Shown here: in pieces, positions 37,436-64,000 of the stretch
How the letters are laid out: each line of letters starts with the position of its first letter
How positions within the stretch are numbered: position 1 is the first letter of the stretch
NCBI GenBank assembly: GCA_019058315.1
Contig: JAHPZH010000003.1
Coordinates: forward strand, 684,451-748,450
Origin: Candidatus Helarchaeota archaeon
GTDB taxonomy: Archaea; Asgardarchaeota; Lokiarchaeia; Helarchaeales; RDOG01
Length of the DNA stretch: 64,000 nt
Direction: 5' to 3'
Position numbers and translations under genes: made by a program
The notes under the pieces: model-generated
Told to the model about the DNA's origin: nothing
Seen by the model: the letters and a program-made list of their open reading frames with translations, nothing else
The model's database searches: none

Positions 37436-37705
37436 ATGTCAGACATCGACCATTTCAAACTCCTTTTTAAACCAAAGAATGTTGCTGTAGTAGGTGCCAC
37501 AGCAAATGAAACAAAAGTTGGGGCAATGGTAGTAAGTAATATCAAAGCATGTGGGTATAAAAATGAAATTTTTTGTGTAAATCCAAGTGAGAAATATAAA
37601 AGTAAAAAAATTTTTGGTTTGAAAGTATATCCGAATTTAAAGAGTATTCCAGAACAGGTTGATCTTGCAACTATTGTTGTTCCTCCAGACCTTGTTGTTC
37701 ATAGT
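37436..37705 (+). pseudogene. Interrupted ADP-forming acyl-CoA synthetase (N-terminal CoA-binding domain only)
   Basis: LFKPKNVAVVGA...VNP...GLKVYPNLKSIPEQVDLATIVVP, then runs into the element-end hairpin at 37706; remainder not in the window. Confidence 0.85.
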
Positions 37706-37900
37706 ATGAACTACCATTCAGCAAGCTGAATGGTATTCGTCCCGAATTTGTCATCATACTCCTTGCGGAGTCGGAGGGACTGGCTGGTCCACGCAGCCCT
37801 TTGCCGAACATCTCAGAGACCTCTTGATGTAAGGCACTGTGTCAAAGTTCGTGAATTGTCGGGAGACTTTGCCCCGCTTTTATCCGTATTAAAGGCACCA
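37706..37900 (-). ncRNA. TnpB omegaRNA/reRNA scaffold and right end (5' boundary approximate)
   Basis: GC-rich tract after/overlapping the tnpB 3' end, ending on - in GAATACCATTCAGC-TT-GCTGAATGGTAGTTCAT, the IS200/IS605-type terminal hairpin + GTAGTTCA signature. Confidence 0.75.
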
Positions 37901-39216
37901 TTAAGCATGGCGGAGGCTGATAAATCCACATTATCCGCTGCCAACAATCTCACCTTCCGAACCATCGGAAAGTTCTTAACTGAAGGCACTTTTTTAAACT
38001 TTGACAGCAAATTTATATATCCTATTATTGTTTTTAACCCATTATTTATCTTATAAGCACCACTATACAAATCGATGAGCCCCTTTAGTGCAATGTTCAA
38101 TGAAGCATTTCTATCCCTATGATCGACATGACCACAATTGCTGCATTTAAACAATCTCTTATGTTTATGGGATTCTTTTTTAGTTTGGCAGAGCACACAG
38201 TTCTGGGAAGTATAGTGGGGACTCACGGCATAATTTGGATACCCGCGTATGAATGCTTTATACGTAATAAAATCTTGCAATTTTTTAAAACCCCAATGAT
38301 GGTACTTCAAATTATTCTTTTTACCCCAGTTTATATTATCCATAATATTTGTAAGATCTTCGAAAATAACCACAGGGTTTTGAAACTTCGAAATCCACTT
38401 AACTGCTACTTTGCTTGCGAGATGAAGGACATGATTTGTGATTTTTTGCTGCTTTCGCCCTATTTTTTTTATCATTGATTTATTGTTAACTTTTTGTAAT
38501 CTTTTTCGTATCTTAAAAAATTTATACCGTTGATAGACAAGGGGTGAAAAATCGATTATAAGTGATCCTAACACAACACCTCTGACATTCACGGCACTTA
38601 AAGCTACATTAGTCGTATTATTATCAATACCGATAAAAGTGTGATCCGTAGAACCATCAAATATCGGTTTTTTTCCTAAGTCCATATTAACAATCAAATA
38701 ATATTTTTTACCAATTTTCTTCAAATTTGCAGCCCCAAATTTTAGGGCTTCTGCAAGTCCCAGCTCGACTAATTTCATATGTCGCTCTGAACCTATAAAT
38801 TCCAAGATCAACCTTTCGTCCTTTCTCACACTAATTCTAACGCGATTTTTCGCTAAAATCTTATATCCTTCTTTATAATTGAGACGGGAAGTCATTAACC
38901 CATTCACAAGACTCGGTGGGCTTGCTCGTGGGTCCGTTTTTCGCTTTGCTAAATACGATTTTATCGATTCGCTAGTCACATCCCGGCAACATTGCCTAGT
39001 ATTTGCCAATATATTCGTTTTTACTTGACATTTCTCAAGAAAAGTTTTAGAATATCGACCGAGCTTGTTCCAATGCTCCAGATATTGGTTGTAGACCGCT
39101 CCAAACTCTCTCATAAGATCGTCCAATTGGTTTTTCACCTTTTTCGAGGTAACCAAAAGCTTGAATTTCAGCGCAATTATTAGGTTATCTTTTTTATTTT
39201 TACTATTCCATGGCAT
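37813..39216 (-). CDS. tnpB: RNA-guided endonuclease TnpB (Cas12f-like), catalytic triad intact
   Basis: RuvC-I FIGIDNN, RuvC-II IFEDL, YTSQNCVLC...CSNC Zn finger, RuvC-III HRDRNASLNI. Confidence 0.93.
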   Translation of the reverse strand: MPWNSKNKKDNLIIALKFKLLVTSKKVKNQLDDLMREFGAVYNQYLEHWNKLGRYSKTFLEKCQVKTNILANTRQCCRDVTSESIKSYLAKRKTDPRASPPSLVNGLMTSRLNYKEGYKILAKNRVRISVRKDERLILEFIGSERHMKLVELGLAEALKFGAANLKKIGKKYYLIVNMDLGKKPIFDGSTDHTFIGIDNNTTNVALSAVNVRGVVLGSLIIDFSPLVYQRYKFFKIRKRLQKVNNKSMIKKIGRKQQKITNHVLHLASKVAVKWISKFQNPVVIFEDLTNIMDNINWGKKNNLKYHHWGFKKLQDFITYKAFIRGYPNYAVSPHYTSQNCVLCQTKKESHKHKRLFKCSNCGHVDHRDRNASLNIALKGLIDLYSGAYKINNGLKTIIGYINLLSKFKKVPSVKNFPMVRKVRLLAADNVDLSASAMLNGAFNTDKSGAKSPDNSRTLTQCLTSRGL

Positions 39217-39497
39217 AACTTATTTATTATTCATTCATATATAAACCCCACTAATAATTTGGTTCAAAACAGACTTTTTCAAAACTTTATGACTATGAAC
39301 TTTAACATTCGCCGCTTTCCCCCGTTTCTCGACCTCATATCTGCTCTTAAATAAGCCTAGAGCCGGATTTGAGTCTAAAATCTTAAATTTATCATAAAGA
39401 AAAATGCATCAATTTTGCACTTTTTCGAAAGTGGTCTAAGAAAAAATTTAAATATTAGTCATCAAGCCCGACTACTACAAAATTTTTTCAAAAATTA

Positions 39498-42400
39498 ATG
39501 AAAATTTTGGAGTTGAAAAAGATGCCCGCAATGTCGTCATACTTTAATAAATTGAAATTACATCTAGAAAGGAATGATATTGAAGAAGATAAATTATATG
39601 AACATCAGAAAAGAGCTCACAAATTACTATTTGAGGGGTTTAATTTCTCAGCATTTGTTCCAACAGGTTTCGGAAAAACGGAAGACGCCCTTGCAGCTAT
39701 TGGACATGCCTTATATTGTAATTTGGTAGCGGTTTATCTTGTTCCCCGGGTGATGCTGCTCCACCAAAAAGCCAGACTATTGAAAACCTTCTTTAAGGGG
39801 GTAGCAAGGGTTATTGTCATCCAGGGGGATTTAAAACCTCATCCCAGGGAGTTGAAGGATCCATGGGGAAAGCTCATAATCGTAGCTACATTTGAAAGCT
39901 TCAGAGCTTTCCTATTTTCAGTCCAGAAAAGGCGATATTTTGATAGAAAAACGAATATCTTCGGTTCGGTAGTTATTGACGAAGTGCACATGCTCGGGGA
40001 TAGGACCCATGGACCTTCTCTTGAGACGATGCTGTATAAGTTGCACAAGGAACATGATTCTCAGTTTTGTTTTTTGAGTGGGAGTTTTGAAAAGAGCTCT
40101 GCTGATTGGTGGTGTAAAAGGTTCAACTGTAAATTAGAATACATGTCTCACGAAAGGGATTTTTATTGCTGGAATATTTACGCCGAGCAGTCTACTTTTA
40201 AATGGAAAGATGACAAGATCAAAGAATTATGCAATGAATTTTTAGAATTTCATATATCCCACGATATTCAGGATTTAGCAGAAATACGCCCCGGAAAGAT
40301 GGTGATTTTTATCAGTACTCGCAAAAGAACGGAAATTTATTGTAATAACGTTAAAAACTCCTTAGAATCGAGCAGACCGAACTATAAGGAACATTTTAAA
40401 TGCAGTTTTATTCATGCGGGCATGACATTGGAAGAAAGAAAACAAATTTTTGATGATTTTAACAGCGATAAAGGTGTTAGATTTCTTTTTTGTACAACAG
40501 TGATTGAAGTAGGTATCGATATAAAAAACATTGAAGTGGTCTTGATCGAAGATGCCCATAAATATTCAGCCATTAAAAGAACTCAAATGATTGGGAGGAT
40601 GAGGTTAAATCATGGAGTTGTCATAAATATGATTCCTCTATTTGCTAAACGCCGTTTTAAAAGATCTATCATATATGAGAAAACATATGCAGCGAAAAAG
40701 ATCTTACCTAGTGTAAATTTTGCACTGTTTAGCTGGTATTATTGGTTTTCTGGGAGAAAAAGAATATTTTGGAGTATAGAGTATCCTTCGGAAGAAAGTG
40801 AGAAAGATAGAACGATATTTCATTATTCTGATACAGAACCCATTAGAGGATATAAATTAGAAAAGATTACTAGCCGAATCGATCTTAGACATCTGCCTGA
40901 CCTAATCCTTGAATCGTTATTTCGAACCCAAAAGAGTTTATCACAAATAGAAGATCATTTAAAGAGCATAATGGGGGAGTATGTATTAGTAGATAGAAAT
41001 AAGAAAACGATCAAAAGGAAAATTCATGAATTCGTAGGTATGAAATATATAAGGTCTACTGGAAGCAAATTTAGTCTTACATATATTGGGGAGGCTATAG
41101 TGGAGGGACACTTACCATATTTTTTTGCTGATAGGATTCTAAGAACATTTGAGGTTTTTCCCGAGCTCCCTACTCGAGAAATAAAACTGTTAATTGGGGA
41201 ACTGGTCGCGATGAAAGAAGCTAGTTCCAAGAAGATGTGGGATGTAGAAATGTTCATTAAAAATTACAGTAAAGATCCGATTATATTTACCGAAAATCTT
41301 GAAAAATATAAAATTTTAAAAGGGGATGCGGAGGTTTATCGCCGTTGTGCTGCTTGGATAGCTAGCGCTATTTACCTACTCTATCGGGGATATCAATTTC
41401 ATAATTTTGTTGAAGAAATTCGAACTAACATCGAATGTATAAATTCTGTGTTGTTTTGGGCTAAATTTCATAGAAGAAACCTGGATTACCACCATGTGGC
41501 ACTAAAAGAGCCAAGGAAATTGTCTAAAAGAATTTGTAATAGAATAAATCGAATTATTAAAACGTTTCAAAAATCTGGGGTGAGGGTGAATCTGCAAAAA
41601 CCACCCATGTGGCCCTATCAGAAATATCATGATTCTAAAGGAGCTGCCGTTTTAAACAACAAGATTATTGAAGTATTAGGAGAATCTGATGATGAGGGAC
41701 TTACTATATTTGAAATGGCTCAAAAAATTAACTCTGACCCCGACTTCAAAAACACCCTTATTACAGAGTCCAGAATTGCAGGACGGTTGAAAAACAGCCT
41801 AGCATCACGGGTTGAGCGCATCAAGGTTTATACCAATACGGGGGCACCCCATTTTAGATATTACTTAAAGGGAAACCTGCCCGAGCAAAGCGAGTTCACA
41901 TGCGCAAATTGTAATAATTTTGAAAAAGACCCGGCTAAGCGAATTTCGACAGCGGGTACAGTTTATACCTGCCAAAAATTAGAGATGGCAGTAAACGCAA
42001 ATAACCCTTCGTGTGCTCATTTTGAGCCCTATGAAAATGAATCTAGGACGTTTGCTACTTTTCCATTCAAATGGAACATTGAAGTATGCCCCAAATGTAA
42101 TGCTAGAAAAACTATTAGAGTGCCTCAACATGGAGAAGCTACCATTTGTAAGCGCTGTAACGTCCTTGTTGAGCGAACGGACAACGGTACTTTTAGAGCG
42201 ACTACAAGGCATAAAGTCTCAGAAAATATTGTCCAAACTGACGATAAGGGGATGAAATATATTGAGACCGACCCGAATAAGAGGGTAGTTTATGTTCCAA
42301 CAGACCATACATTAACAACAGAATACATTCCCGAAGGAAATTATTATATAGTCAAAGTACGCGGACTTGGAATACGTTCTTTTTTAAAACAGGTCGCTGA

Positions 42401-45400
42401 AGTGGTCTTGGGAGGGGGGACAATTGGTGAAGATGCCAAAGAACTCTTAAAAGAGCATGAAATCAAAATAACAAATTATTCGGATGAGCAGGTCCAAGAG
42501 CTTGAAAGCAGAAAAAAACGGGAAAGTAAACTTCGCAGATTGCTTCGAAGCAAGAGAGTTAAGGGAGAATTATTAATAATTGCAAGGGAGCGGACTTATG
42601 CCAAAATAATCTCAGAGATATTATGTGTTAAGAAAATGGAGGAGCTTTTTCCAAAATATAAATCCCTTATTAACAGGACCATCAAAAAACAAATGGACCA
42701 GCTAATTAAAACTTATTTGGACACGACACGGGGGTCAGCTAGGGTAAAAAACAAAAAGGAAAAAGTTCAAAGTGTAATTAAGAAATTACGTATGATAGAA
42801 GGTATTGTTGCAGAGCTCGGGTGGATAGTCCCAAGAAGAATACTTGAGGATAAATGCCCCGAACTCAGCACCTATGGAAGGGGAAAGGGAAGATATGCCC
42901 GGTCTATAGTAAAAAGTAGGGGTAAAGCCCTTGATAAATTAAATGCGGTGATAAATTATCTGTATTACATGCTCCAAATAGAAGGTAGTGAGGCGTTCTA
43001 TGAAGCGGGATTTTCTAAACTATTCCCGGGACCGGGATTATTGCATTACAGGAGAAAAAAACCGAGAAAACGGGGAAGGAAATATAAAGCATTGTACTGG
43101 GCTATGACAAAAAGAAATACGGGAGCAATTTTTGATTTTATAGACCAATATAAACCCATCATAAATTTCTATGTATTCAAATTCATCCTTGATGGGGAAT
43201 TAGATCCTAAAACGGACATTTGGCAAAAATATGATGAACGAAAAAGAAGAATATATTTCCTTTCCCCACAAGGAAGAAATAAAGTAAAAGAGTTATTTGA
43301 GCAGATTTGTTCCTCAAAATTTGTATATAAAAATAAAAAATTCACTTTTAAGACCATAATGAAAAAAGAAGCTGAAAATCTGGCCAAATATTTGGAATCA
43401 AAGCGAAAAATTTCATATACGCCATTTATTTGCTTTGAAAATGAGGATGATGCAATATGGGCAAATAGTAATTTGCGATTCATACATAATATTTTGGGAA
43501 AGGGGAAATATCGAGGTTATATATCTCAGAATTTTGAAACCAAATATAGAAAAAAGAGTAATAGAGTGCGGCGTAGAAGACGGGTTGTTTCCCCCGAACC
43601 CGAACAATTACCTCTCAACGTAGTTATCGTGCATCACACCGATTTTGATGGGTTCAAATCCGCACTTAACCTTGTGTATAAGCACCTGGGCAATAGAATA
43701 CACCTTTTCTATGCAACAAACAATAAAGGGAGAAATTACATTGAATCAGTGCTTGAAAACAAAGTTGCGAGGGTGTTACACAGGAAGCTAAAAAACATAA
43801 TTTATATTGCAGATTTTCCGCTACCCATAGAACGTGAGGACTTCCTTGTGGATTTCTTTAATAGCTTAAAGAAGAGAGGGTTGATTTTTGAGCCCTACTG
43901 GTTTGACCACCACGATACTCCTGGAGTCCAGCAAATGAGGGAAGTGATACGAGAGTTTGGTGGAGAGTTCTTCCACACGAATGATGAGGATGTCGAAACA
44001 TATGACTTAATCATGAACCATATTAAAAGTACTAGGCCTAGAATTAGAGATGTAAAGGCTTACCAGCAACTTGACATTAATTCTGTAGAGGATTTTGATG
44101 AAAACTTGAAAACCATAAACACCTCTGCTAATCTATCTAATTGGCATGAGCAGTATGACTATCATAGGCTTGAATCCCACTATAAAATAAATTTTCTTAA
44201 CTTTTTCAAGCGTATGTGTGTGCATGAAATTAATAATAAGAACTCTAAAGATAAGAAACCTAAAGAAACTAAAGGATTTAAGCGATATCAAGTTAGGATC
44301 GAAGCACTCATTAAAAACCCACAGAAATTGTTATATTATTATGATTTTGGGGAAACTGGGTACGGGTTTAAATACGCATTTTTTATGTTTAAGAGGAGTT
44401 TTCCCATACGAAAAATTAATAAGCTCATTAAAACCTTGGGAAGAAATCCAGGTCAAATAGATATCAAAATTTATTACTGGCAAGACCATACCATATCATT
44501 ACGTGCAAAAAAATCAACACAGCTTAGTTTCCAAGGATTGCTTGGTGAGAAAATGGGACACAAAAAAGCTACTGGACTACGTTCACAGAAGGTCAAATTT
44601 GTCCCTCATAAAATAGATTCCAATTATCATCTTGATTTTGAATACGGGTACTTTACAAGCATAGCGGAATTCATGGCAAGGCTCAAGATTAGTCCCCTTC
44701 AACGAGCATCGGGAACGTTTTCAAAAATAAAAACCCACACATCAGCCTATGAAACGTATCAATATGATTTTATGCCCCCTTTGGCCATGGGAGAGCCTTG
44801 CTTTCCCACATTTTTAAAGAGCTTGGATAAAATATTAAGAGGATTTAATAGCGGGTCTATAAATTTGCTATTTTGTCATAAATATGATCAATATAGGCTG
44901 ATGTATTTTGTCAAATACTTGATGTTAATGGCACAACACGAAAATGGACTGCACTCAAAAAAAGTCGTGTGCATTGATACAACTGCACACACCTTTTATC
45001 GAACGATGCTTACCTTCTTGAATAAATACAAACAGTTTACCCTGGACAATCTTAAAAATATCTTTTTCATTGACGCTTTGAATTTACGAAAGTTAAACAA
45101 AGCGGTCGACGGATTAAAGGGAATGATAGAAACCTATCAACCGAAATTGGTGGTAATAACTTCCCCATTTATCAGTATTAGAAAGAAACACCCAATAAAA
45201 AACCACTTAATACCTTACGAGGTGGAAACAACCTCTATACGGTCAACGGAGGCGGCACGATTGGTCAGGAAAATTAGAAAAATAGCAAGAAATACAGGCA
45301 TGATATTCTTACTCACACACTTCGTAAATTGGTATAAAGTATTTAAGACCAAAAACCCCTACCTCTATAACTCTATAAGTTTTGATACCTCAATCTTCTT

Positions 45401-45941
45401 GAAAAAAGATAAAGACAACATTCTCAAGCTTGATATAATCCATGTATGGCGAAAAGACACAACTTGTAAAATAAAGCTTGATATGAAGCGAAAGAGGTTA
45501 CAATTGAAAGATATATGTCATGTACCTATTTTAAAAGGGATGAAGGTAATTCGCAACAATATTACCTCGAATTACCCCGAGCTGGCTTATTGCATGGAAG
45601 GGTATAATAAATATGGGGTAAAATTCCTTATTTTTAAGTTCAATCGAGGAGTTCGTGGAGTCCATAAGTTAAGAAACAGTCTAGGGATTAACAGAAGTCT
45701 AGATATTATTATAAGGGCGGATAATAAAATAGATTTTTATAACTTTGAACCCGAATTTATTAATTTAGACGCTCTATTACATTTTGGGGGAGTCCCAAAT
45801 GAAGAAACCATGATAATCGGTGGAAAAGAACGTTTTGTACGATGGATCCGGATGTATCCAGCATTATATAAAGAATTCTTCGATTCTTTTGAAGAGTTCT
45901 TTCTGCATTTTCTCAATATAAACCTTACAAACCCAAGATAG
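39498..45941 (+). CDS. Multidomain protein: SF2 Ski2/Hel308-like helicase - wHTH - Zn fingers - Cas1 - DHH/DHHA1 - degenerate RecA/RadB-like domain
   Basis: PTGFGKT, DEVH, TTVIEVGID, QMIGR; Cas1 region ~aa 928-1310 with LRMIEG (E1101), DKLNAVINYLY, GLLH (H1183), FDFIDQYKP (D1213/D1216); HHTDFDG, IADF, WFDHH, GHKKATG; PTFLKSLDKILRG, VVCIDT, PKLVVITS. Confidence 0.85.
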   Translation: MKILELKKMPAMSSYFNKLKLHLERNDIEEDKLYEHQKRAHKLLFEGFNFSAFVPTGFGKTEDALAAIGHALYCNLVAVYLVPRVMLLHQKARLLKTFFKGVARVIVIQGDLKPHPRELKDPWGKLIIVATFESFRAFLFSVQKRRYFDRKTNIFGSVVIDEVHMLGDRTHGPSLETMLYKLHKEHDSQFCFLSGSFEKSSADWWCKRFNCKLEYMSHERDFYCWNIYAEQSTFKWKDDKIKELCNEFLEFHISHDIQDLAEIRPGKMVIFISTRKRTEIYCNNVKNSLESSRPNYKEHFKCSFIHAGMTLEERKQIFDDFNSDKGVRFLFCTTVIEVGIDIKNIEVVLIEDAHKYSAIKRTQMIGRMRLNHGVVINMIPLFAKRRFKRSIIYEKTYAAKKILPSVNFALFSWYYWFSGRKRIFWSIEYPSEESEKDRTIFHYSDTEPIRGYKLEKITSRIDLRHLPDLILESLFRTQKSLSQIEDHLKSIMGEYVLVDRNKKTIKRKIHEFVGMKYIRSTGSKFSLTYIGEAIVEGHLPYFFADRILRTFEVFPELPTREIKLLIGELVAMKEASSKKMWDVEMFIKNYSKDPIIFTENLEKYKILKGDAEVYRRCAAWIASAIYLLYRGYQFHNFVEEIRTNIECINSVLFWAKFHRRNLDYHHVALKEPRKLSKRICNRINRIIKTFQKSGVRVNLQKPPMWPYQKYHDSKGAAVLNNKIIEVLGESDDEGLTIFEMAQKINSDPDFKNTLITESRIAGRLKNSLASRVERIKVYTNTGAPHFRYYLKGNLPEQSEFTCANCNNFEKDPAKRISTAGTVYTCQKLEMAVNANNPSCAHFEPYENESRTFATFPFKWNIEVCPKCNARKTIRVPQHGEATICKRCNVLVERTDNGTFRATTRHKVSENIVQTDDKGMKYIETDPNKRVVYVPTDHTLTTEYIPEGNYYIVKVRGLGIRSFLKQVAEVVLGGGTIGEDAKELLKEHEIKITNYSDEQVQELESRKKRESKLRRLLRSKRVKGELLIIARERTYAKIISEILCVKKMEELFPKYKSLINRTIKKQMDQLIKTYLDTTRGSARVKNKKEKVQSVIKKLRMIEGIVAELGWIVPRRILEDKCPELSTYGRGKGRYARSIVKSRGKALDKLNAVINYLYYMLQIEGSEAFYEAGFSKLFPGPGLLHYRRKKPRKRGRKYKALYWAMTKRNTGAIFDFIDQYKPIINFYVFKFILDGELDPKTDIWQKYDERKRRIYFLSPQGRNKVKELFEQICSSKFVYKNKKFTFKTIMKKEAENLAKYLESKRKISYTPFICFENEDDAIWANSNLRFIHNILGKGKYRGYISQNFETKYRKKSNRVRRRRRVVSPEPEQLPLNVVIVHHTDFDGFKSALNLVYKHLGNRIHLFYATNNKGRNYIESVLENKVARVLHRKLKNIIYIADFPLPIEREDFLVDFFNSLKKRGLIFEPYWFDHHDTPGVQQMREVIREFGGEFFHTNDEDVETYDLIMNHIKSTRPRIRDVKAYQQLDINSVEDFDENLKTINTSANLSNWHEQYDYHRLESHYKINFLNFFKRMCVHEINNKNSKDKKPKETKGFKRYQVRIEALIKNPQKLLYYYDFGETGYGFKYAFFMFKRSFPIRKINKLIKTLGRNPGQIDIKIYYWQDHTISLRAKKSTQLSFQGLLGEKMGHKKATGLRSQKVKFVPHKIDSNYHLDFEYGYFTSIAEFMARLKISPLQRASGTFSKIKTHTSAYETYQYDFMPPLAMGEPCFPTFLKSLDKILRGFNSGSINLLFCHKYDQYRLMYFVKYLMLMAQHENGLHSKKVVCIDTTAHTFYRTMLTFLNKYKQFTLDNLKNIFFIDALNLRKLNKAVDGLKGMIETYQPKLVVITSPFISIRKKHPIKNHLIPYEVETTSIRSTEAARLVRKIRKIARNTGMIFLLTHFVNWYKVFKTKNPYLYNSISFDTSIFLKKDKDNILKLDIIHVWRKDTTCKIKLDMKRKRLQLKDICHVPILKGMKVIRNNITSNYPELAYCMEGYNKYGVKFLIFKFNRGVRGVHKLRNSLGINRSLDIIIRADNKIDFYNFEPEFINLDALLHFGGVPNEETMIIGGKERFVRWIRMYPALYKEFFDSFEEFFLHFLNINLTNPR

Positions 45942-45966
45942 GATCTTTAAACCAAATCAGACCAAT

Positions 45967-46503
45967 TTATTCTATAAAATATTTTTTTATAAGATAAGAG
46001 GAAAATCCCTTATCATCCCTAAAATAATCATATTTATCTTCCTCACTCTCAAATCTTCGATCCTTATAAGTGCTTTCTACAATTGAATTAATAAATTCGA
46101 TAAAAAGATCGATATCTGATTTAAGTTCGTTAACTTCATGCCTTAATTTATCAACTAATTCTTTATTCTTAGGACTTTCAGTTAATTTTTTTGATACTCT
46201 CTTTCTCGATTGAGTCTGTAGCTCCAGTTTTTCCTTTTCTAGTTTTTGAACTTGAGTATTTAATTTTTTTAATTCATTATTAATTCCTATTATTTCTGAA
46301 AGATTTTGCATTGGAACCCACCAGATCCAAGATCCGCGATTTTTTGTCTGTTTTCCTTTAATTTTTCCCTCAATTGCTAATTTATCTAAACGGTTTTTTA
46401 TAATATGTCGTGGTTTTTTTAATAATTTGACAATTTCAGTTGTGGTATATGGTCTATTTGTATTTGAAAAAATTGATAAAATGTCTTGAATAATTTGAAC
46501 CAT
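45967..46503 (-). CDS. wHTH DNA-binding protein with coiled coil
   Basis: PYTTTEIVKLL...RLDKLAIEGKIKGKQ..SWIWW. Confidence 0.7.
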   Translation of the reverse strand: MVQIIQDILSIFSNTNRPYTTTEIVKLLKKPRHIIKNRLDKLAIEGKIKGKQTKNRGSWIWWVPMQNLSEIIGINNELKKLNTQVQKLEKEKLELQTQSRKRVSKKLTESPKNKELVDKLRHEVNELKSDIDLFIEFINSIVESTYKDRRFESEEDKYDYFRDDKGFSSYLIKKYFIE

Positions 46504-46843
46504 TTTTCTCCATCTTAACTTGTTAACTAACTAGTTAATGAACTAGTGTTTTTTTAAATTTTTCTAATTACTTATTTTATCAAAGATCGCTACACCCCTA
46601 ATTGGATTCCTTGTATGTTTATTGTTCTATCTTTGCTCTCGTTAATCAATCAATTTAAAAGCAATTTATAATAAAACAACTAAGAAATAGAGTTTCCTTA
46701 TCCAATCTTGTGGTAAAACTCTTTTTCTGGACTTCTATTTTTACGATTTGAGACCGACATATTCGATTTTTCATCTCTAACGCACAAGGAAAAAGTGAGA
46801 TGGCTTAAGGAGTTTGAAAATTATAAATTTATAAGTTAAAAAG

Positions 46844-49392: not shown

Positions 49393-49905
49393 TCAAGATA
49401 TTTTATTATAAATCCAACCAACAAAACCGAACACATTTCTAAACATAAGAAGATGTTCACCCATTTGAATGCGTTCTCCGCCATGAACTATTCTATTCCT
49501 TAAATCGATTAACTGTTCTAAAGTTTCATAAAATGTAGGTTCATAATAATCTCTAGCTTTTAGAATTTTAAGACATTTTCTTAATGATTTTGGATCTTCG
49601 TAAATATTCAAGTCTTTCTCTATATGTAATTTTAACTCTCTCTCAAGAATTCTTGCACATATCATTGCTGTCGCGTTCCAAAATGCCCCTCCAAGACAAC
49701 CTAACGCCTCATCAAGATCCTTGATTAACTCACTATCCATTTGTAAAAATAGGGGATCGGGAAACACATCTTGACATCTTAAGTTTTTTTCTTTCACGGA
49801 TAGAGGAGTTAAGAGTGCTATTGAATCCAACATTTTATTAAAACAAATCTTACAAATACGAACTTTAGATATTACGTTTAAGTCACAAGTTTCGCATTTA
49901 ACCAT
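49393..49905 (-). CDS. HEPN (DUF4145-like) protein with N-terminal Zn finger
   Basis: EALGCL...ATAMICARILE and RNRIVH (R-x4-H); CETC...CKIC. Confidence 0.75.
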   Translation of the reverse strand: MVKCETCDLNVISKVRICKICFNKMLDSIALLTPLSVKEKNLRCQDVFPDPLFLQMDSELIKDLDEALGCLGGAFWNATAMICARILERELKLHIEKDLNIYEDPKSLRKCLKILKARDYYEPTFYETLEQLIDLRNRIVHGGERIQMGEHLLMFRNVFGFVGWIYNKIS

Positions 49906-50200: not shown

Positions 50201-50437
50201 TTAGGATTTTTTTTCTTTTTCAAGTAGTGCTAATGATAGTGTAGGACTTAATGTACAAATTAAAACTATTACAATTAAAAGATTAGATGGTAAATTGCTA
50301 AAAAATCCGTAATATATCAAAATAACATATAAAATAACATTACTGGCTATCAATTGAATTAAAACATAATATACCATTCGGTTCTGTTTAAACATAACAA
50401 ATCCTCCATTAATAATTTCGTTATTTTTATTTATCAT
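50201..50437 (-). CDS. Small two-TM membrane protein
   Basis: Two hydrophobic helices; GGAGG precedes the internal ATG (MFKQN). Confidence 0.55.
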   Translation of the reverse strand: MINKNNEIINGGFVMFKQNRMVYYVLIQLIASNVILYVILIYYGFFSNLPSNLLIVIVLICTLSPTLSLALLEKEKKS

Positions 50438-50480
50438 AAGGTCTTTTAAATTTTTTAAAAATAATACAAATCATTACCTT

Positions 50481-50642: not shown

Positions 50643-50679
50643 TTATAATACTATATTATTATACATCCTTAACTTATTC

Positions 50680-50904: not shown

Positions 50905-51045
50905 TGAAAAGACTATACTCCTACTTACCTGTATTTTTCAAAGGGGGGATGCTAGGAGTAATAATTTTAGATAATATTATAAAGAGAAATCTAAGAAGCA
51001 GCACACTCATCTAAATATAAATAGATGATGGTATAACATTACCTT

Positions 51046-51207
51046 ATGACGTATAAAATTGAATATTTTTATTTTGATTACAGTTTGGTATTAACGTGTT
51101 CATGTGGTAGAGTTTCTAAGCAATTCGGTTCGAACCATACCAATACGTTCAAGTGTTCGTGCGGATTAACATTTAAAGTGTTGCCAGAAGTAGTTAAAAT
51201 TAAATAA
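51046..51207 (+). CDS. 53-aa Zn-ribbon microprotein, copy 2
   Basis: MTYKIEYFYFDYSLVLTCSCGRVSKQFGSNHTNTFKCSCGLTFKVLPEVVKIK; 51037-51207 is a direct repeat of 50472-50642. Confidence 0.7.
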   Translation: MTYKIEYFYFDYSLVLTCSCGRVSKQFGSNHTNTFKCSCGLTFKVLPEVVKIK

Positions 51208-51319
51208 AAGGTTTATCTCAACAAAAAATTTAATAATTATAAACGACAATTTTTTAATCACAAGCTATTAGAGAGGGCATATTGTAATTGCGCTTTAAGA
51301 GCTTAAATTCTATTATTTC

Positions 51320-51892
51320 ATGAGGGTTAGAATGGATAGATCAAAATTTTTATTCTTAACAACTAAACACGGGAGACTTTCATTCGAAAGACCACCTAAG
51401 GGAATGAAAGATGTTATAATTGCAATTACCAGAAAAAATTTAGAGATAAAATCTAAAAAAACAGGAGAAATAAAGAAAATTCCTCTCAAACAGATAGAAA
51501 TGGCAGAAAAAATAGATAGTTCAAAAACTAGCTATGTAGGAACAGCCTTGTTTGGGACACCTCCGACTCAAGATAGAAAAATATACACAAAAATAATAGC
51601 TAAAAAAAGAAAACCTTTTTATATTACATTTATAAGTGGAATGTCTGGTTGGCAAGTGGATTTACACGATGAGTTCTATTCAATTTTGAAATCTAGAATT
51701 GATAAAATAGAAAAAGAAAGCGAATTACAAAAGTTAAAAGAATTGCAAAAACCCACCAATGTTTTTTATATAAATATTCCACCACAGACAAAATTAGCAG
51801 CTTTAAAATGTCCTTCATGCCAAGCACCATTAGAATATATGCCCCCTTGTAAATGTGAGCATTGTGGAGTCATGATTGAGTTAATGAAATAA
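51320..51892 (+). CDS. PH-like domain protein with conserved C-terminal Zn-ribbon tail
   Basis: Beta-rich 'KHGR' domain, IPLKQI, terminal helix; CPSC...CEHC tail. Confidence 0.65.
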   Translation: MRVRMDRSKFLFLTTKHGRLSFERPPKGMKDVIIAITRKNLEIKSKKTGEIKKIPLKQIEMAEKIDSSKTSYVGTALFGTPPTQDRKIYTKIIAKKRKPFYITFISGMSGWQVDLHDEFYSILKSRIDKIEKESELQKLKELQKPTNVFYINIPPQTKLAALKCPSCQAPLEYMPPCKCEHCGVMIELMK

Positions 51893-51895
51893 AAA

Positions 51896-52048
51896 ATGGG
51901 ATCAAAGGGAATGTCTGAAATTACTCTATTTGAAGCAGCTCGACATTGTTATTATTCATTAGAACCTAAGGGAGATAAAATCGATGTCTTTCTCAAAATC
52001 ACTAAAAATGAGTTAAAAATTTGGGTTAAGGTGCTCGATAAAGATTAG
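51896..52048 (+). pseudogene. Truncated fragment of the PH-like family
   Basis: LFEAARHCYYSLEP..DVFLKITKNELKI resembles LFFAEKHGRYSVQRP..DSFIKISKENLTI. Confidence 0.45.
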
Positions 52049-52104
52049 CCATAAGAGATTAAAGGTTAAATGTGAATGATAAAAATAAATGGGAGTAACA
52101 CACC

Positions 52105-52881
52105 TTGAAAGAATTTCTTGAACGATTGGAATGGATGAAAATAAACAAAATCAAAAATAATTCAGAAAAAAATGCACTAGTTGAGTTAAAAAATAGATAC
52201 GGATTACAAAATGAAGACTTTGAATTGGATAAAAGTGGTCATATAATAAAACTGAAAATAATCGGCAAGAAATTACATTTAATTCCAGAAATTTTAAGTG
52301 TCTTTTCCCAGTTACAAGATTTGAATCTTTCAAATAATGAAATTGTGAAAATAGAAAAGCTTGAAAATTTAACCCAATTAAAAGAATTAGACCTTAGTAA
52401 AAATCAGATAACAAAGATATCGGGTCTAGAAGACTTTACTAAGTTCCGAAAATTAGATCTTATGGGAAATCCTCTAGAGAAAGAAGATCAAGTTGTATAT
52501 AAAAAGGGAATAGCTACAGTAATTAAATATTGCCAAAAAAATAAAAGAATAGAGCTATTTAAAAAAAACTTACTTGATTATATTGCTCCTTATGATGAAA
52601 TGACATTTAAAAAAATAGCAGATCATTTCGAATTGGATGTGCTATTTGTTGAAAATGAGATTAAAAATATGTTAGAAAGTAAAAAAATTATTGGCAGATT
52701 GTTTCCTGATAAAATTATCTTAAGAGAATTAAGTCCGAAAATCGATCAGACTGTATATATAACAATTCCACCTAAAACAAAATTGACTGCCTTAAAATGT
52801 CCTTCTTGTCAAGCACCCCTAGAATACATACCTCCCTGTAAATGTGAGCATTGTGGGGTTATGATTGAATTAATGAAATAA
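52105..52881 (+). CDS. Leucine-rich repeat + PCI/wHTH protein with the same Zn-ribbon tail
   Basis: LQDLNLSNNEI, LKELDLSKNQI, LDLMGNP; PYDEMTFKKIADHF..VENEIKNMLESKKIIGRL. Confidence 0.8.
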   Translation: MKEFLERLEWMKINKIKNNSEKNALVELKNRYGLQNEDFELDKSGHIIKLKIIGKKLHLIPEILSVFSQLQDLNLSNNEIVKIEKLENLTQLKELDLSKNQITKISGLEDFTKFRKLDLMGNPLEKEDQVVYKKGIATVIKYCQKNKRIELFKKNLLDYIAPYDEMTFKKIADHFELDVLFVENEIKNMLESKKIIGRLFPDKIILRELSPKIDQTVYITIPPKTKLTALKCPSCQAPLEYIPPCKCEHCGVMIELMK

Positions 52882-52978
52882 GAGAAGAAATTTTATGTTT
52901 AATACGGTTGGTACATAAATGATCCCCGTTGGCATCCTGAACAATGTTTAGATGATGAAAATATAGTAACTACATATA

Positions 52979-53092
52979 TTAACTTGTGCATGTGGTAGAG
53001 TATCCAAGCAATTAGGTTTGAACCATACAAATACATTCAAGTGTCCGTACGGGTTAACATATAAAGTGTTGCCGGAAGTAGTTAAAATTTAA
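52979..53092 (+). pseudogene. 5'-truncated third copy of the Zn-ribbon microgene
   Basis: LTCACGRVSKQLGLNHTNTFKCPYGLTYKVLPEVVKI*; no start codon, last Cys changed to Tyr. Confidence 0.75.
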
Positions 53093-53185
53093 TAATTATA
53101 CATATTAATAATAATTGATATATTAATTCAAAGATTATTTGAGGATCTTTTTTGAGGAGAAAATTATGAAATGGAGGTTTAAACC

Positions 53186-56303: not shown

Positions 56304-56915
56304 TTGTTATTAAATCTGACTGAACTAAAAAAACCAATTGATAAAAATCAATATAAAAAAAGCGAAATTGATTTTATAAAATATTTTAAAGTGAATAGAA
56401 TTGAATCAATAATAAATCAATTTACTATACTTTTAGAAAAATCAAGTAAAGAAGAAGAGATTCAAAAATTTTTAGAAAAATATCCTATTCTAATCAATCA
56501 ATATTCCAAAGTCTATCCAAAATTTAAATTAGGTGAAAATTACATAACGGATTTTGTTATTAAAAATATACTTGACCAAGGGATTCATTATACTTTAGTT
56601 GAAATAGAAAAATCAAATATGCGAGTGTTAAATAAGGATCGGACTTTCACCTCAGATTTTAACAAGGCATATAAGCAAGTTTTGGATTGGAAAGTGTGGC
56701 TCCAAAAAAATCAAGTTTATATCCAAGGGAAATTGGAAGGTTTTGAAAGCCCATCATTCATAATTATTGGTGGGCGTTCAGAAGGTATTTCAGAAAAGGG
56801 AAAAGAAAATATTCGAGCATGGAATAGGAGCCAAAATAATATCAAATTTTATACTTATGATGATATTTTAAAAAGAGTAGAAGAATATTTAAATAACATA
56901 AAGCAATATTCGTAA
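56304..56915 (+). CDS. sduA: Shedu (SduA, DUF4263) nuclease domain protein
   Basis: EEEIQKFLEKYP, ITDFVI, LVEIEKS, AYKQVLDW, IIIGGRS, TYDDIL. Confidence 0.8.
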   Translation: MLLNLTELKKPIDKNQYKKSEIDFIKYFKVNRIESIINQFTILLEKSSKEEEIQKFLEKYPILINQYSKVYPKFKLGENYITDFVIKNILDQGIHYTLVEIEKSNMRVLNKDRTFTSDFNKAYKQVLDWKVWLQKNQVYIQGKLEGFESPSFIIIGGRSEGISEKGKENIRAWNRSQNNIKFYTYDDILKRVEEYLNNIKQYS

Positions 56916-57758: not shown

Positions 57759-58805
57759 CTATGGTAGAATCCCACCCCATTTTTGAAAAATTATTTTTTC
57801 TTTTTTTAATCGAGGTAAGTCAAATTCATTTACAGGAATATTCGATTCTCCATGTCTTTGATAATATGTTAATTTATCTGTTTTAACTGCGTATAATTGA
57901 GGCATTCTTGGAATAAAAAAGACCAATACTATTTTGCCATTTTTAAGTTTGATTTCGTTGTAAATAACACCTTTTGTAGGTTCTAGAAATGGTGAAAGGT
58001 GGTTAAAAGAATTAAGAACATGTTGAACTTCACTTGGTGAAATTCCTTTTATTTCTTTAATTTGACTATTTTCTTCAAAAATCCCAATAATTATATGCCC
58101 TCCTTTGGTATTGGCAAATGCAGATATGGTTTTTGCTAACTTTTCTCCCTTTGAAATTGATTTAAATTCAATGAAGACACGTTTATTATGGTCAAGAAAA
58201 GAACCTTCCCGAATTAACTTATTTTTTAATTTAATTATAGTATCCATAGTAACATTTTCAATAGAATCAGGTATTAAATAATTAATTTCATGGAGAGAAT
58301 ATCTACCCAATTCTGTAATTTCCCAGTAAGAATTTCTAATAATTTTTGCTAAATCTTCGAGATAAATTCCTATATCATCATAGAGAAAATCTTTAATTTT
58401 TTCATAATCTTCTTTTTTTGAATTTATTTCCTCAAAAATATCTTTATAATAAACAAAACAATGTGTTGGATTTCTTTCCCAAGCTTTATTTAATATCCTT
58501 AAGACATCATCCCCTACTTTTTTAAAGAATTGAGTTTCTAAGAATTCTTCATGGACTAATATTCCATAAGAACCGATTTGTAATTCGAAAAATTCCTCAT
58601 CAACATCTCCCTGAGCTGCTATCCAAACATAAAATCCTTTAGATTTGCCATCATATAATGCTCTTTTTAATTGAACTATTTCAATATGTTTATAATTTTT
58701 TTGAAGATAATCTAATACCTCAGTAAATTTAGATGGTTTTCCTTCTAATTTCTTATCATATAAAAACTTAATAGTTACTTTTTGTATTGCAGTAATTTCA
58801 AACAA
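57759..58805 (-). CDS. Schlafen/AlbA_2 domain protein with N-terminal wHTH-like repeats
   Basis: IEFKS...LAKTISAFANTKGGHIIIGI...YYQRHGES. Confidence 0.85.
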   Translation of the reverse strand: MFEITAIQKVTIKFLYDKKLEGKPSKFTEVLDYLQKNYKHIEIVQLKRALYDGKSKGFYVWIAAQGDVDEEFFELQIGSYGILVHEEFLETQFFKKVGDDVLRILNKAWERNPTHCFVYYKDIFEEINSKKEDYEKIKDFLYDDIGIYLEDLAKIIRNSYWEITELGRYSLHEINYLIPDSIENVTMDTIIKLKNKLIREGSFLDHNKRVFIEFKSISKGEKLAKTISAFANTKGGHIIIGIFEENSQIKEIKGISPSEVQHVLNSFNHLSPFLEPTKGVIYNEIKLKNGKIVLVFFIPRMPQLYAVKTDKLTYYQRHGESNIPVNEFDLPRLKKEKIIFQKWGGILP

Positions 58806-59824: not shown

Positions 59825-59869
59825 TCAATTACTTTATCCTCTCTTTTTTTCCTAAAAAATTCTCTTCAT

Positions 59870-61205: not shown

Positions 61206-61337
61206 TTAAAAGTTGAAAAAAAATAGTGATTAATTATTTACTCCTCTTACTCACCATTCTTTTTGATAATATATTTTTTATTATGTTTTAAGTGATATTA
61301 ATAAATTTACTTTTTTCCATAGGAGAGTCGTCTATAT

Positions 61338-61439: not shown

Positions 61440-61507
61440 TATATTGCTTTATTCTACATTTTTCTTTTATAAAAAAAGAGATTTAAAGATATGCATTGAA
61501 CCGTTTT

Positions 61508-62335
61508 TCACGGGATTAATGATTGAATTAATAACGTCAATCCCGCACCAGTATAACCTAACTGGATTGAACCACTAGCACCATATTTATAAGTTTGTAC
61601 TTGGATTAAATGTTGTCCCGGAGTGACATTATAAATAAGTTGTTGAAAGAATACAGTCATCCAATGAGGAGTCCCGCCGGGGCTGATTTGATGGATCGGC
61701 GGATCTTGGTTAATTCCATCAAGAGTAAATCTAAAACGAGTAATGGCATCCACATATCCTGGACAACTAAAACTTAAATATAGGGAAACATTATTTTTAC
61801 CTTCAATAAATATCGTATTATTCATTCCTGTTATGTTTACAAAGCTTGTGCTAGAGGAAGTAAATCCTTCATTATAATAAGTATACCAAGTTTTTATTAC
61901 ACCGGATTGTGGTGTATTATTTATCAATATCCAAACTTCATCTTTTCCGATTTTACTTGAAGCATCGGTAGCGACTATGGTAATGTTATACCAACCATTA
62001 GTAAAAGTGGTCGTATTCCATTCCAAAGGTACAGTTGTTCCTATCTCGGTACCATTTCGAAGAACTGAAACTGTATAAGCCGAAGCTGCCCATACCATCG
62101 CCCTAATGGTAACATTACCCGAATACATCTCTCCATGATCTGGGTCCAATATACCAACGACCGGATCTCCAGCTGCACCTTGGTCTCCTTCTGGAGCGGA
62201 TATAGCTGACAATATTAATATTGGGTTTATTGGTTCTGATTTTGTTGTTACTAAATATCCAAAAGTTAGTCCAAAAGCTCCTATAACAATAGCAATTATA
62301 GTAATAGCTTTTAAAGTATTTTTCTCCATTATCAA
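61508..62335 (-). CDS. Secreted/anchored Ig-like domain protein with C-terminal beta-sandwich
   Basis: N-terminal TM; short Gly-X-Y stretch; WNTTTFTNGWYNITIVATD bacterial-Ig motif. Confidence 0.7.
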   Translation of the reverse strand: MIMEKNTLKAITIIAIVIGAFGLTFGYLVTTKSEPINPILILSAISAPEGDQGAAGDPVVGILDPDHGEMYSGNVTIRAMVWAASAYTVSVLRNGTEIGTTVPLEWNTTTFTNGWYNITIVATDASSKIGKDEVWILINNTPQSGVIKTWYTYYNEGFTSSSTSFVNITGMNNTIFIEGKNNVSLYLSFSCPGYVDAITRFRFTLDGINQDPPIHQISPGGTPHWMTVFFQQLIYNVTPGQHLIQVQTYKYGASGSIQLGYTGAGLTLLIQSLIP

Positions 62336-62763
62336 TCCTCCAATTTTAAATGAAAATATGTTTTTTATTATGGTCTGAATGGTATTAATAATTTTACTTT
62401 TTTCTATAGTCGGAGTAGTCTGAAAATAAAAGAGATAGAGTAATTTGGATGATAATATTTTACCTTCATTCGGTAATTTTTATTCTTTGGAAGGAAAAAT
62501 TGTAACTGGCTAACCAAACTATTTTACTGACAAAAATAATCTATATCTGTGAGTTTTTAGTCAAATAATTTTATTAATTGACTAATTTAACTGTACAATA
62601 TCGAATTTTACATTTATTGCGACAAAAAATTGATCATAGTAGTTCCAAGTCAACATAATCAGGTGATGAATCAACGTCCTATGTTACAAGGAAACAATAC
62701 CAACTGCCCAAGTTACAAGAAGTCTTTGATTTTGACACGTTAATCACTGACGGTCTGGAAGCA

Positions 62764-64000
62764 TTGAAACGTGTATGGGGAATGGGGAGGGTTAATATAC
62801 AATTTAAGTTATATTTCAAATATCCCAATCTGAATTATGTCAATATCGGCAGAGCGGAATGGAAAATTAGGGCAAAAGAACTATCCGAGAAAATTAATAA
62901 TGGGTTTTCGAGGGTTGAACAGTTTTATTCCGCATTTGAAAAAAAATTCCTTGCACTTAATTTTTACGAATTTGGCTACCCAATGATATGTACCCTTGCG
63001 AAAGAAAAGGACTATTGGGAAAAGGAAATCACTTTTTCAATTCCCCATCTCACTCCATCCTTGCTGGTCTCCATGAACATATTTTTACAGCACATTCTTG
63101 GGACACATATTTTTAATTACGCATATAAGGTCAGATTTACCATTCAAATTACTCAAGTGCAAGATGGAAAACTGCATACCATTACACTATTTGAGGAATA
63201 CGCCAAAATAGTTAAGTTTTATGGATATTTGAGCTTAAAAAATAAACCTAAATTATTAGAATATTATGAAAAAGTTGCTCCGTTTATGGTTACATCTTGT
63301 CAAGGGTACCCCATTACAGCAGACCAACTCAAACGTGGCGAAACGCTATTCAGACGGCATATCCGAAAAGATGGTAAGAAGGATTCGATTTCGATCAATG
63401 GTCCTGATGAAATTGTAAACTATATTAAGGAAGAGGATTTTGGGGGATTTTATCATTCTGTTCAAAAAAGCGATAAAACTGTCGGCATGGGGGTAATTGA
63501 CCTCGATCCGAAGCGGGGAATTAAGCAAGTACTGGGTCAGAAAGTGCTGTGGAAGATATTATTCAAATTTGCTGGGGATCTGGTGAAAAATGCATCCAGT
63601 CACGGTCTTGAGGGGCTTGCTATAAAATTTAGTGGGGAAAAGGCATCCATTTGTATTTTTCGCTGGCGGATGATGCACTAGCTGGTGAACAGATCGATTA
63701 TGATTCCTATATTATTGCACTACGGATTGTGGAGGATGAACTTGAGGGAAAAAAAGCTACGGCAAGTTTTTTGAATCCCTTTAAAGCATTAAAATTTTCA
63801 TTACAGGCCCTTGCTCTTGATACTATGTTTGGATATTGTAGGTGGGTGAAAGAAACATGGCTGAAAAAGTGCAATGACATACGTGAGAAAGCTCATTTAT
63901 TCACATTAACGAATGATAATGAAAATTATTTCAAAATATTCATTGATTTTGCCTCTAATATGCCTCAAGGAGTCTTTCGGACTATCTTAAGTGTCCATGC
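62764..64000 (+). CDS. Archaeo-eukaryotic primase (AEP)/LigD-polymerase-like protein, -1 frameshift near 63634-63642, runs off window
   Basis: Motif I IDLDP; KFSG then (-1 frame) KGIHLYF = motif II; later KIFIDF..N...FRTILSVH = motif III region; -1 frame open to 64000. Confidence 0.8.

What the first reader, a model, noticed from the sequence alone, without database searches (positions are those of the whole stretch)
37436..64000. Probable new large mobile element: terminal TnpB guided against its own insertion site, paired with a Cas1 fusion and an AEP
Seen: the acyl-CoA synthetase gene stops exactly at the TnpB right-end hairpin (37706). Its remainder is not found beyond the tnpB start (39217-39497) or anywhere else in the window, so the insertion appears much larger than an IS. 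No Y1 or serine TnpA is present; tnpB is head-to-head with the Cas1 fusion. Established: TnpB omegaRNA takes its guide from DNA flanking the right end and cuts the empty allele to favour retention/homing. Here the guide would be ACTATGAACAACAAGGTCTG from the broken host gene. Inference: a >26 kb casposon-like element that uses Cas1 for integration, an AEP instead of PolB for synthesis and TnpB as an RNA-guided homing nuclease.
Basis: partly seen in the sequence, partly recalled or inferred. Interest (0 to 1): 0.9.

Follow-up and report, generated by a model that had tools for sequence, protein, structure and literature searches.

The report
40-kb Cas1-helicase/TnpB cargo element
A 39.9-kb block of DNA that starts with an RNA-guided nuclease gene (tnpB) and a giant Cas1-helicase fusion gene and ends with SSB and RadA-like genes has replaced most of an acyl-CoA synthetase gene; the tnpB/Cas1-helicase pairing is already published for Asgard archaea, but this large, defence-gene-carrying form with both ends mapped appears not to be.

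Summary
The ADP-forming acyl-CoA synthetase (ACS) gene breaks at 37705|37706, where three tnpB copies in this genome begin to align.

The missing ACS part is not in the window. Its last 23 codons lie 13.6 kb past the window end (window-equivalent 77571-77642). They are followed by the same three genes that follow the intact orthologue on a public contig. So a 39,865-bp block (37706-77570) replaces ACS codons 91-469.

Block contents:
- tnpB, with catalytic residues intact
- a 2147-aa fusion of helicase, Cas1, DHH and a weak RecA-like domain (Cas1H)
- about 30 kb of variable, defence-rich cargo
- SSB-like and RadA-like genes at the far end

Two further copies share the same ends and gene order but carry different cargo. 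The genome has no Y1 or serine TnpA.

The tnpB/Cas1H module recurs in other genomes and was published by Altae-Tran et al. (2023). The casposon analogy fails: no PolB, terminal inverted repeat or target-site duplication. The AEP call is weak, and that gene is missing from the sister copies.

Verdict: a large cargo-bearing variant of the known Asgard aCas1-TnpB transposon (confidence about 0.55). The main rival is a compact 8.2-kb transposon sitting at the edge of a separate island.

The parts
37436..37705 (+). 5' fragment (codons 1-90) of an ADP-forming acyl-CoA synthetase gene; the left flank of the element and the source of the putative TnpB guide (37686-37705)
   Evidence: Pfam CoA_binding_2 E=4.9e-13. 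74% identical to the first 90 aa of the intact 492-aa orthologue P0003.
37706..37935 (-). Element left terminus and putative omega-RNA scaffold. It overlaps the tnpB 3' end and ends in a hairpin plus ...GGTAGTTCAT at 37706.
   Evidence: Homology among three copies starts at 37706. This 250-bp bin is the most conserved of the tnpB half between copies 1 and 2 (90% against 74-85%). The terminal motif CCATTCA-N11-GGTAGTTCAT is shared with the divergent C6 copy. The predicted fold shows no compensatory changes with only two sequences.
37813..39216 (-). tnpB, 467 aa, RuvC D198/E286/D368 and a CxxC...CxxC zinc finger
   Evidence: Pfam Cas12f1-like_TNB E=3.5e-18. PDB TnpB/Cas12f matches down to 3.5e-10. 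Motif positions.
39498..45941 (+). Cas1H: a 2147-aa fusion. Domains: SF2 DExH helicase (aa 35-368), Zn ribbons (aa ~800-890), Cas1 (aa ~966-1320; E1101, H1183, D1213, D1216), DHH phosphoesterase (aa ~1374-1472), and a weak RecA/Rad51-like C-terminus.
   Evidence: Pfam DEAD, Helicase_C and Cas_Cas1. Invariant residues across 7 homologues. The best solved match is the casposase 6OPM, weak at E=0.031. Rad51 E=0.011.
45967..46503 (-). Winged-helix/coiled-coil gene that follows Cas1H; a backbone gene also present after the C7 paralogue and at the start of contig C2
46504..64000 (.). Variable cargo, continuing to window-equivalent ~75700. It includes HEPN (49393-49905), LRR/PCI (52105-52881), Shedu SduA (56304-56915), Schlafen AlbA_2 (57759-58805) and a possible AEP (62764-64826). 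Beyond the window lie PRTase-CE (66592-70203), PNP-NACHT (70801-75234), SSB-like OB (75741-76442, -), RadA-like (76439-77494, -) and the right terminus ...CAAGGTTATCCGAAGAC at 77570. The ACS 3' remnant is at 77571-77642.
   Evidence: Pfam and PADLOC. Mosaic matches to C2:1-14647 in the same order. Right terminus shared with C2:377252-377312. ACS remnant and downstream synteny with L055.

Best explanation
The block 37706-77570 (39,865 bp) is one cargo-carrying mobile element of the Asgard aCas1(Cas1H)-TnpB kind, and it landed in the ACS gene.

Inferred mechanism:
- The Cas1-helicase-DHH fusion is the integrase/transposase that acts on two unlike ends: left ATGAACTACC..., right ...TATCCGAAGAC.
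- TnpB, with an omega-RNA that runs out of the left end, takes its guide from the flanking ACS sequence. It would cut a site that has lost the element, favouring retention by repair from a sister copy.
- The RadA-like and SSB genes at the other end would assist strand exchange or replication.
- The roughly 30 kb between Cas1H and SSB is exchangeable cargo, mostly defence genes.

Shown: the ends, the gene order, the multiple copies, the gene disruption, intact catalytic motifs, absence of TnpA, and recurrence of the tnpB-Cas1H pair.

Inferred: who catalyses movement, omega-RNA expression and guide use, and that the whole block moves as one unit.
For: 1. Both junctions fall in one gene. ACS codons 1-90 abut 37706 and ACS codons 470-492 abut 77570. 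The same three genes that follow the intact orthologue on L055 follow the remnant: a 74-79-aa ORF, a metallo-beta-lactamase and a 150-aa ORF.

2. The left terminus is shared by three copies with unrelated flanks. The right-terminal ~55 bp is shared with copy 3 (C2:377252-377312), again with unrelated flanks.

3. Copy 2 (C11:835919-843982 plus C2:1-14647) has the same order: tnpB, Cas1H, wHTH, backbone pieces, SSB (95% aa) and RadA-like (68% aa). Its cargo is different and shorter. Copy 3 has a tnpB-Cas1H deletion joint, other cargo, then a RadA-like remnant.

4. A RadA-like gene lies directly after Cas1H, convergent, in two unrelated contigs (L054, L061). One lies 13-14 kb away at the C7 and C1 paralogues.

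5. A divergent tnpB sits next to Cas1H in L019, L050, L051, L052, L060 and L062/63.

6. The Cas1 E/H/D/D residues, the DExH helicase motifs and the DHH motifs are invariant in 7 homologues. The TnpB D/E/D residues are intact.

7. No Y1_Tnp or Resolvase domain is found in the genome.

8. Logan contigs from another study follow the host flank at 97-100% identity and stop fitting at 37707 (records 14 and 30).

9. Altae-Tran et al. 2023 propose aCas1 as the transposase of TnpB-bearing Asgard transposons.
Against: - There is no target-site duplication, terminal inverted repeat or att-like repeat of 10 bp or more at the junctions. 1137 bp of target DNA are missing, so a clean cut-and-paste or Cas1-type insertion is not demonstrated.
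- Homology between copies 1 and 3 stops at the Cas1H stop codon (45936). On contig L058, housekeeping shikimate-pathway genes follow a Cas1H gene directly. Both fit a compact ~8-kb unit.
- Copy 2's right end is only weakly recognisable. Its joining across two contigs (C11 end to C2 start) is inferred, not observed.
- Pairing of the C8 left end with copy 3 is also inferred.
- Cargo pieces occur elsewhere in the genome without Cas1H (C1:20-25 kb, C10:188-198 kb).
- No excision or circle junction was examined, and no RNA data exist.
Confidence: 0.55

Rival explanations
1. The mobile unit is only the compact tnpB-Cas1H transposon (37706-45936, 8.2 kb). It sits at the edge of a separately formed 31.6-kb island (45937-77570) that had already disrupted the ACS gene, or the two were joined by recombination between copies.
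For: Homology with copy 3 ends within 6 nt of the Cas1H stop codon. L058 shows Cas1H followed at once by housekeeping genes. The published description is of an aCas1-TnpB locus flanked by repeats. Cargo segments also occur away from any Cas1H.
Against: All three family copies in this genome keep the order tnpB-Cas1H-cargo-RadA-like. RadA-like genes recur next to or near Cas1H in unrelated contigs. Under this reading the transposon would have had to land exactly at the island's edge inside the same broken gene. No terminal motif was found at 45936 that resembles the left end.
Confidence: 0.25
2. This is not a mobile element but a chromosomal variable or defence island bounded by Cas1H and RadA-like genes and copied by segmental duplication. 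Cas1H and TnpB would be domesticated repair or defence genes.
For: The cargo is defence-rich: SduA, PRTase, PNP-NACHT, HEPN and Schlafen. There is no TSD or TIR. The C7 and C1 paralogues lack tnpB.
Against: The block interrupts a gene that is intact and collinear in a relative. The ends are sharp to the base and lie next to unrelated flanks in three copies. Assembly contigs break at these copies. Contigs from other samples diverge at the junction.
Confidence: 0.12
3. This is an integrated plasmid or virus that uses another integrase, with tnpB-Cas1H as passengers.
For: Replication-type genes (SSB, RadA-like, a possible AEP) lie in the block.
Against: No tyrosine or serine recombinase was detected in the block, and no Resolvase in the genome. 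There are no PHROG matches to ten backbone or cargo proteins. No tRNA gene or att repeat is present.
Confidence: 0.05

Closest known systems
Asgard aCas1 (Cas1H)-TnpB transposons (groups Cas1H-Asgard-1/-2; Altae-Tran et al. 2023 PNAS, PMC10691335; Cas1 diversity in Makarova et al. 2020 CRISPR J, which I could not read here)
   Same: tnpB is adjacent to a Cas1-helicase fusion and there is no TnpA. The copies have defined ends, and the region downstream of tnpB is taken as the omega-RNA/guide. The family is rare (25 hits in 1.84 billion representatives).
   Different: Here the unit appears to extend about 31 kb further, through defence cargo to SSB and RadA-like genes, with both ends mapped. The published GTTCACTCA motif downstream of a hypervariable stretch was not seen. 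This family ends in ...GGTAGTTCAT directly before the variable flank.
Casposons
   Same: A Cas1-family integrase is the presumed transposase. The best solved-structure match of the Cas1 part is the casposase 6OPM, weak at E=0.031.
   Different: There is no PolB in the element, no terminal inverted repeats and no 14-15-bp target-site duplication. Cas1 is fused to helicase and DHH domains.
IS200/IS605-family TnpB-only elements (IS1341-like)
   Same: TnpB with a 3' omega-RNA region ends at the element boundary in a terminal hairpin. The ends are asymmetric.
   Different: It is 40 kb (or 8.2 kb) rather than about 1.5 kb. No Y1 TnpA exists anywhere in the genome to mobilise it. No left end lies next to the tnpB start.
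Tn7-like/CAST elements with defence cargo
   Same: A large transposon with core genes at the ends, variable defence cargo in the middle and an RNA-guided protein on board.
   Different: There are no TnsABC/TniQ genes. The TnpB nuclease residues are intact, so nuclease-driven retention or homing is the expected role, not RNA-guided insertion.

Membership tests
aCas1(Cas1H)-TnpB Asgard transposon | tnpB adjacent to a Cas1-helicase fusion gene | tested here: met
   Window. The same divergent pair occurs in L001, L019, L050-52, L060 and L062/63.
aCas1(Cas1H)-TnpB Asgard transposon | Multiple copies with defined ends or flanking repeats | tested here: met
   Three copies share the left end and two share the right end, with unrelated flanks. 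No flanking repeats were found.
aCas1(Cas1H)-TnpB Asgard transposon | Hypervariable stretch downstream of tnpB followed by a conserved GTTCACTCA-like motif | tested here: not met
   The flanks of the three copies share no such motif. A GTTCAT motif lies upstream of the variable flank.
aCas1(Cas1H)-TnpB Asgard transposon | Asgard archaeal host | tested here: inconclusive
   Genome names are coded. Phylum-mates carry Cas1H. A Vps28 search was uninformative because its controls were silent.
Cas1 | Cas1 fold with conserved metal-binding E, H and D residues | tested here: met
   Pfam Cas_Cas1 34.1 bits on the excised region, above the cut-off of 22.3. E1101, H1183, D1213 and D1216 are invariant in 7 homologues. 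The fold was not modelled.
Casposon | Family B DNA polymerase inside the element | tested here: not met
   No PolB was found among the block's ORFs. A PolB lies just outside the tnpB end of the C6 copy.
Casposon | Terminal inverted repeats and target-site duplication | tested here: not met
   No direct or inverted repeat of 10 bp or more at the junctions. The TSD test is blunted by the 1137-bp target deletion.
TnpB/OMEGA | RuvC D-E-D triad and zinc finger | tested here: met
   D198, E286, D368 and C340/C343/C358/C361.
TnpB/OMEGA | Omega-RNA transcribed from the 3' end, with its guide from the flank | not testable with these tools
   Only conservation is available (90% in the terminal 250 bp) and a predicted fold without covariation. 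No RNA run is listed. There is no Rfam hit.
IS200/IS605 | Y1 (or serine) TnpA in the element or in trans | tested here: not met
   Zero Y1_Tnp and zero Resolvase matches in the whole genome, with controls ringing.
Archaeo-eukaryotic primase (AEP) | Significant match to an AEP/PrimPol model, or an AEP fold | tested here: inconclusive
   LigD_Prim-Pol 18.4 bits, below the 27.4 cut-off. Protein-atlas leads to PriS/PrimPol clusters score 0.81-0.90. The single-sequence AF2 model is unusable, pLDDT 38.

The most novel reading that the evidence does not exclude
A previously undescribed class of large (10-40 kb) Asgard transposons. A Cas1-helicase-DHH fusion moves a unit bounded by a TnpB/omega-RNA end and a RadA-like/SSB end, and this unit ferries exchangeable defence islands. 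The shared left-end motif across two unrelated TnpB clades would imply that Cas1H, not TnpB, reads the ends.
Probability: 0.4. Interest if true: 0.75.

Novelty: new variant of a known kind. Interest (0 to 1): 0.6.

Why it matters
The link between Cas1 integrases and TnpB nucleases bears on how type V CRISPR systems arose. The published Asgard aCas1-TnpB loci were described only briefly and mostly from fragmented metagenome contigs.

This locus offers:
- both ends to the base;
- a disrupted target gene with an intact orthologue to compare against;
- sister copies in one near-complete genome;
- a conserved partner module (RadA-like and SSB);
- about 30 kb of defence cargo.

That makes concrete tests possible: end-joining by Cas1H, omega-RNA mapping, and TAM determination. 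It also suggests how defence islands may travel in Asgard archaea.

Tried and rejected
- A DNA search of the left flank in 40 relatives found no collinear locus, so no empty site could be taken from the held genomes.
- A word-based protein search with the Cas1 region found nothing.
- Makarova et al. 2020 (PMC7307682) is not held.
- Rfam gave no hit in the window.
- No RNA holder is listed for the stretch.
- Logan contigs of X2-X4 cover the element only patchily, and the letters beyond 37707 were not printed, so the alternative allele could not be read. The 39508-to-46256 joint in X1 has only 24 letters on one side and was ignored.
- The AF2 single-sequence model of the putative AEP was unusable.
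- PHROGs gave no hits for ten backbone or cargo proteins.
- The Vps28 search to place the host was uninformative.
- I first read 77507-77556 as degraded ACS sequence. I rejected that when the same stretch matched copy 3's end.
- I looked for a shared motif upstream of RadA-like genes at C7, C1 and G304 and found none.
- GGTAGTTCAT is absent from the G003, G006 and L060 tnpB ends.
- TAM inference failed. The right-end flanks of the window and copy 3 share no motif, and copy 2's right end is uncertain.
Full report
**Setting.** The window is C11:684451-748450 of a 5.8-Mb, 12-contig, 30% GC archaeal assembly. The contig continues 95 kb past the window end, which proved decisive.

**Observation.**
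- ORF 37436-37729 is the N-terminal CoA-binding part of an ADP-forming acyl-CoA synthetase (ACS). tnpB lies at 37813-39216 (-). A 2147-aa DEAD/Helicase_C/Cas1 protein lies at 39498-45941 (+).
- Two more tnpB copies exist, at C11:835919 and at the start of contig C8. All three become alignable exactly at 37706 (ATGAACTACC, then a hairpin), and their flanks to the left are unrelated. So 37705|37706 is a real element boundary.
- A Logan contig of the probable source run bridges this junction (record 2).
- No ACS continuation lies between tnpB and the fusion gene or elsewhere in the window. A full-length paralogue finds no orphan C-terminal piece in the assembly.

**Where the gene resumes.**
- The closest full-length relative of the 90-aa fragment is P0003 (492 aa, 74% identity). 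It lies on Logan contig L055.
- On L055 the ACS gene is followed by a 79-aa ORF, a metallo-beta-lactamase gene and a 151-aa ORF, all on the opposite strand.
- In this genome the same trio lies at window-equivalent 77667-79420. Directly before it, on the + strand, 77571-77642 encodes KITVDILKKLIEYRKFLEANNAL*. This matches the last residues of P0003 (tblastn E=8e-8).
- Both ACS fragments match this orthologue much better than any of the roughly 27 in-genome paralogues. They are therefore two pieces of one gene.
- The block 37706-77570 (39,865 bp) thus replaces ACS codons 91-469 (1137 bp).
It is not a clean insertion, however. Target DNA is missing, and no direct or inverted repeat of 10 bp or more marks the junctions.

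**The right end.**
- The last ~55 bp before the ACS remnant (...ATCTCTTTATAAATCTTTTTGT...CAAGGTTATCCGAAGAC) recur at C2:377252-377312, next to a RadA-like remnant. Beyond that point the flanks are unrelated.
- That locus is the far end of copy 3. Its near end (C2:383459-384600) is a deletion joint between tnpB codon 29 and Cas1H codon 1925.

**Copy 2.**
- Copy 2 runs off the end of C11 inside Cas1H (81% identity over 8.1 kb). It most likely resumes at the start of C2.
- There, the wHTH start, several backbone pieces, SSB (95% aa) and RadA-like (68% aa) follow in the window's order. They span 14.6 kb rather than 31 kb.
- This joining is inferred. The break coincides with a stretch that is 96-97% identical to the window.

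**Contents.**
- TnpB has D198/E286/D368 and two CxxC pairs.
- Cas1H domains:
  - a DExH helicase (K60, D161-E162-x-H164);
  - Zn ribbons;
  - a Cas1 domain whose E1101, H1183, D1213 and D1216 are invariant in seven homologues;
  - a DHH phosphoesterase domain with all signature motifs;
  - a weak Rad51-like C-terminus.
- The cargo includes HEPN, LRR/PCI, Shedu SduA, Schlafen AlbA_2, a PRTase-CE protein and a PNP-NACHT protein. No PHROG hits or recombinases were found.
- The far end carries an SSB-like OB-fold gene and a RadA-like ATPase gene.

**The AEP.** The putative AEP (62764-64826) scores below Pfam's threshold and gets only protein-atlas leads. It is absent from copies 2 and 3. It is therefore cargo at best, not a core replicase.

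**Comparative evidence.**
- The Cas1H family is very rare: 25 hits in 1.84 billion representative proteins. Among 400 genomes of the phylum, full-length Cas1H genes were seen only in this genome and in G003, G006 and G304.
- A divergently transcribed tnpB sits next to Cas1H in the C6 paralogue, G003, G006 (twice) and an ENA contig.
- A convergent RadA-like gene directly follows Cas1H in L061 and L054. One lies 13-14 kb away at the C7 and C1 paralogues.
- On L058, housekeeping genes follow Cas1H at once, so the RadA-like partner is not universal.
- The tnpB next to the C6, G003 and G006 fusions belongs to another clade (about 20% identity, no zinc finger). Even so, the C6 copy ends in the same CCATTCA-N11-GGTAGTTCAT motif as the window family. 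This hints that the ends are read by Cas1H rather than by TnpB.
- The genome has no Y1 or serine TnpA at all, yet it has six tnpB loci.

**Literature.**
- Altae-Tran et al. 2023 (PMC10691335) place aCas1-associated TnpBs in two Asgard groups, Cas1H-Asgard-1 and -2. They propose aCas1 as the transposase because the loci are often flanked by repeats.
- Koonin and Makarova 2022 (PMC8730458) note that some Asgard Cas1 homologues may belong to new mobile elements.
- The pairing is therefore known. I found no description of a 40-kb cargo-bearing form with a RadA-like/SSB end, but I could not read the 2020 source paper.

**Population hint.** In three sediment metagenomes from another study, contigs follow the host flank at 97-100% identity. 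Two of them stop fitting the window at 37707 and run on for 16-18 unlike letters. The element itself is covered only patchily. This fits an allele without this junction, but those letters were not available to read.

**Verdict.**
- Best explanation (0.55): one 39.9-kb aCas1-TnpB element with defence cargo and a RadA-like/SSB end, inserted in ACS with loss of 1.1 kb of target. Cas1H acts as transposase, and TnpB acts as a retention nuclease guided by the flank.
- Main rival (0.25): only the 8.2-kb tnpB-Cas1H unit is mobile, and the rest is a neighbouring island.
- The casposon label fails on PolB, terminal inverted repeats and target-site duplication.
- The AEP role is unsupported.

Noticed in passing
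L019:5169-7760 (G000:C6:300168-302759): A family B DNA polymerase gene (863 aa, DNA_pol_B E=8e-56) starts about 100 bp outside the tnpB terminus of the C6 tnpB-Cas1H copy, on the same strand as tnpB. It could be a host PolB or an element partner; this is unresolved.
   Followed up: partly
window 45706-46683 vs the end of C11 (843982) and C2:1-265: A roughly 1-kb stretch spanning the Cas1H 3' end and the wHTH gene is 96-97% identical between copies that are otherwise about 80% identical. Two contigs break there, which suggests recent gene conversion between copies.
   Followed up: partly
window 50425-53100; also C11:586148-586394, C1:20559-20728, C2:3029-3212, C11:940-1176: A ~170-bp repeat, also noted by first readers as a Zn-ribbon microgene, is interleaved with the cargo genes and recurs at several loci and contig ends.
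   Followed up: no
window 33330-34811 and C11:256-272 kb, C3:540 kb, C2:294 kb: The 493-aa gene left of the locus (weak BNR_4/DUF4258) belongs to a large paralogue family with a tandem array of eight or more copies at C11:256-272 kb.
   Followed up: no
whole genome: About 27 paralogues of the ADP-forming acyl-CoA synthetase N-terminal domain are present. Loss of one copy is probably cheap for the host.
   Followed up: no
L015:1001-10279 (G000:C7:21001-30279): Giant HEAT-repeat proteins (2543 and 557 aa) form the 'cargo' after the C7 Cas1H paralogue (2766 aa), which has no tnpB. A HEAT-repeat protein also lies next to the C1 paralogue.
   Followed up: no
G000:C6:150809, C3:1385706, C5:818580: Three further tnpB loci are not linked to Cas1H, in a genome with no detectable TnpA of either type.
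   Followed up: no
L059:8363-8959 (JGI 3300033153): One distant Cas1H locus has a serine recombinase (Resolvase/MerR) 1.3 kb downstream, unlike all the others.
   Followed up: no
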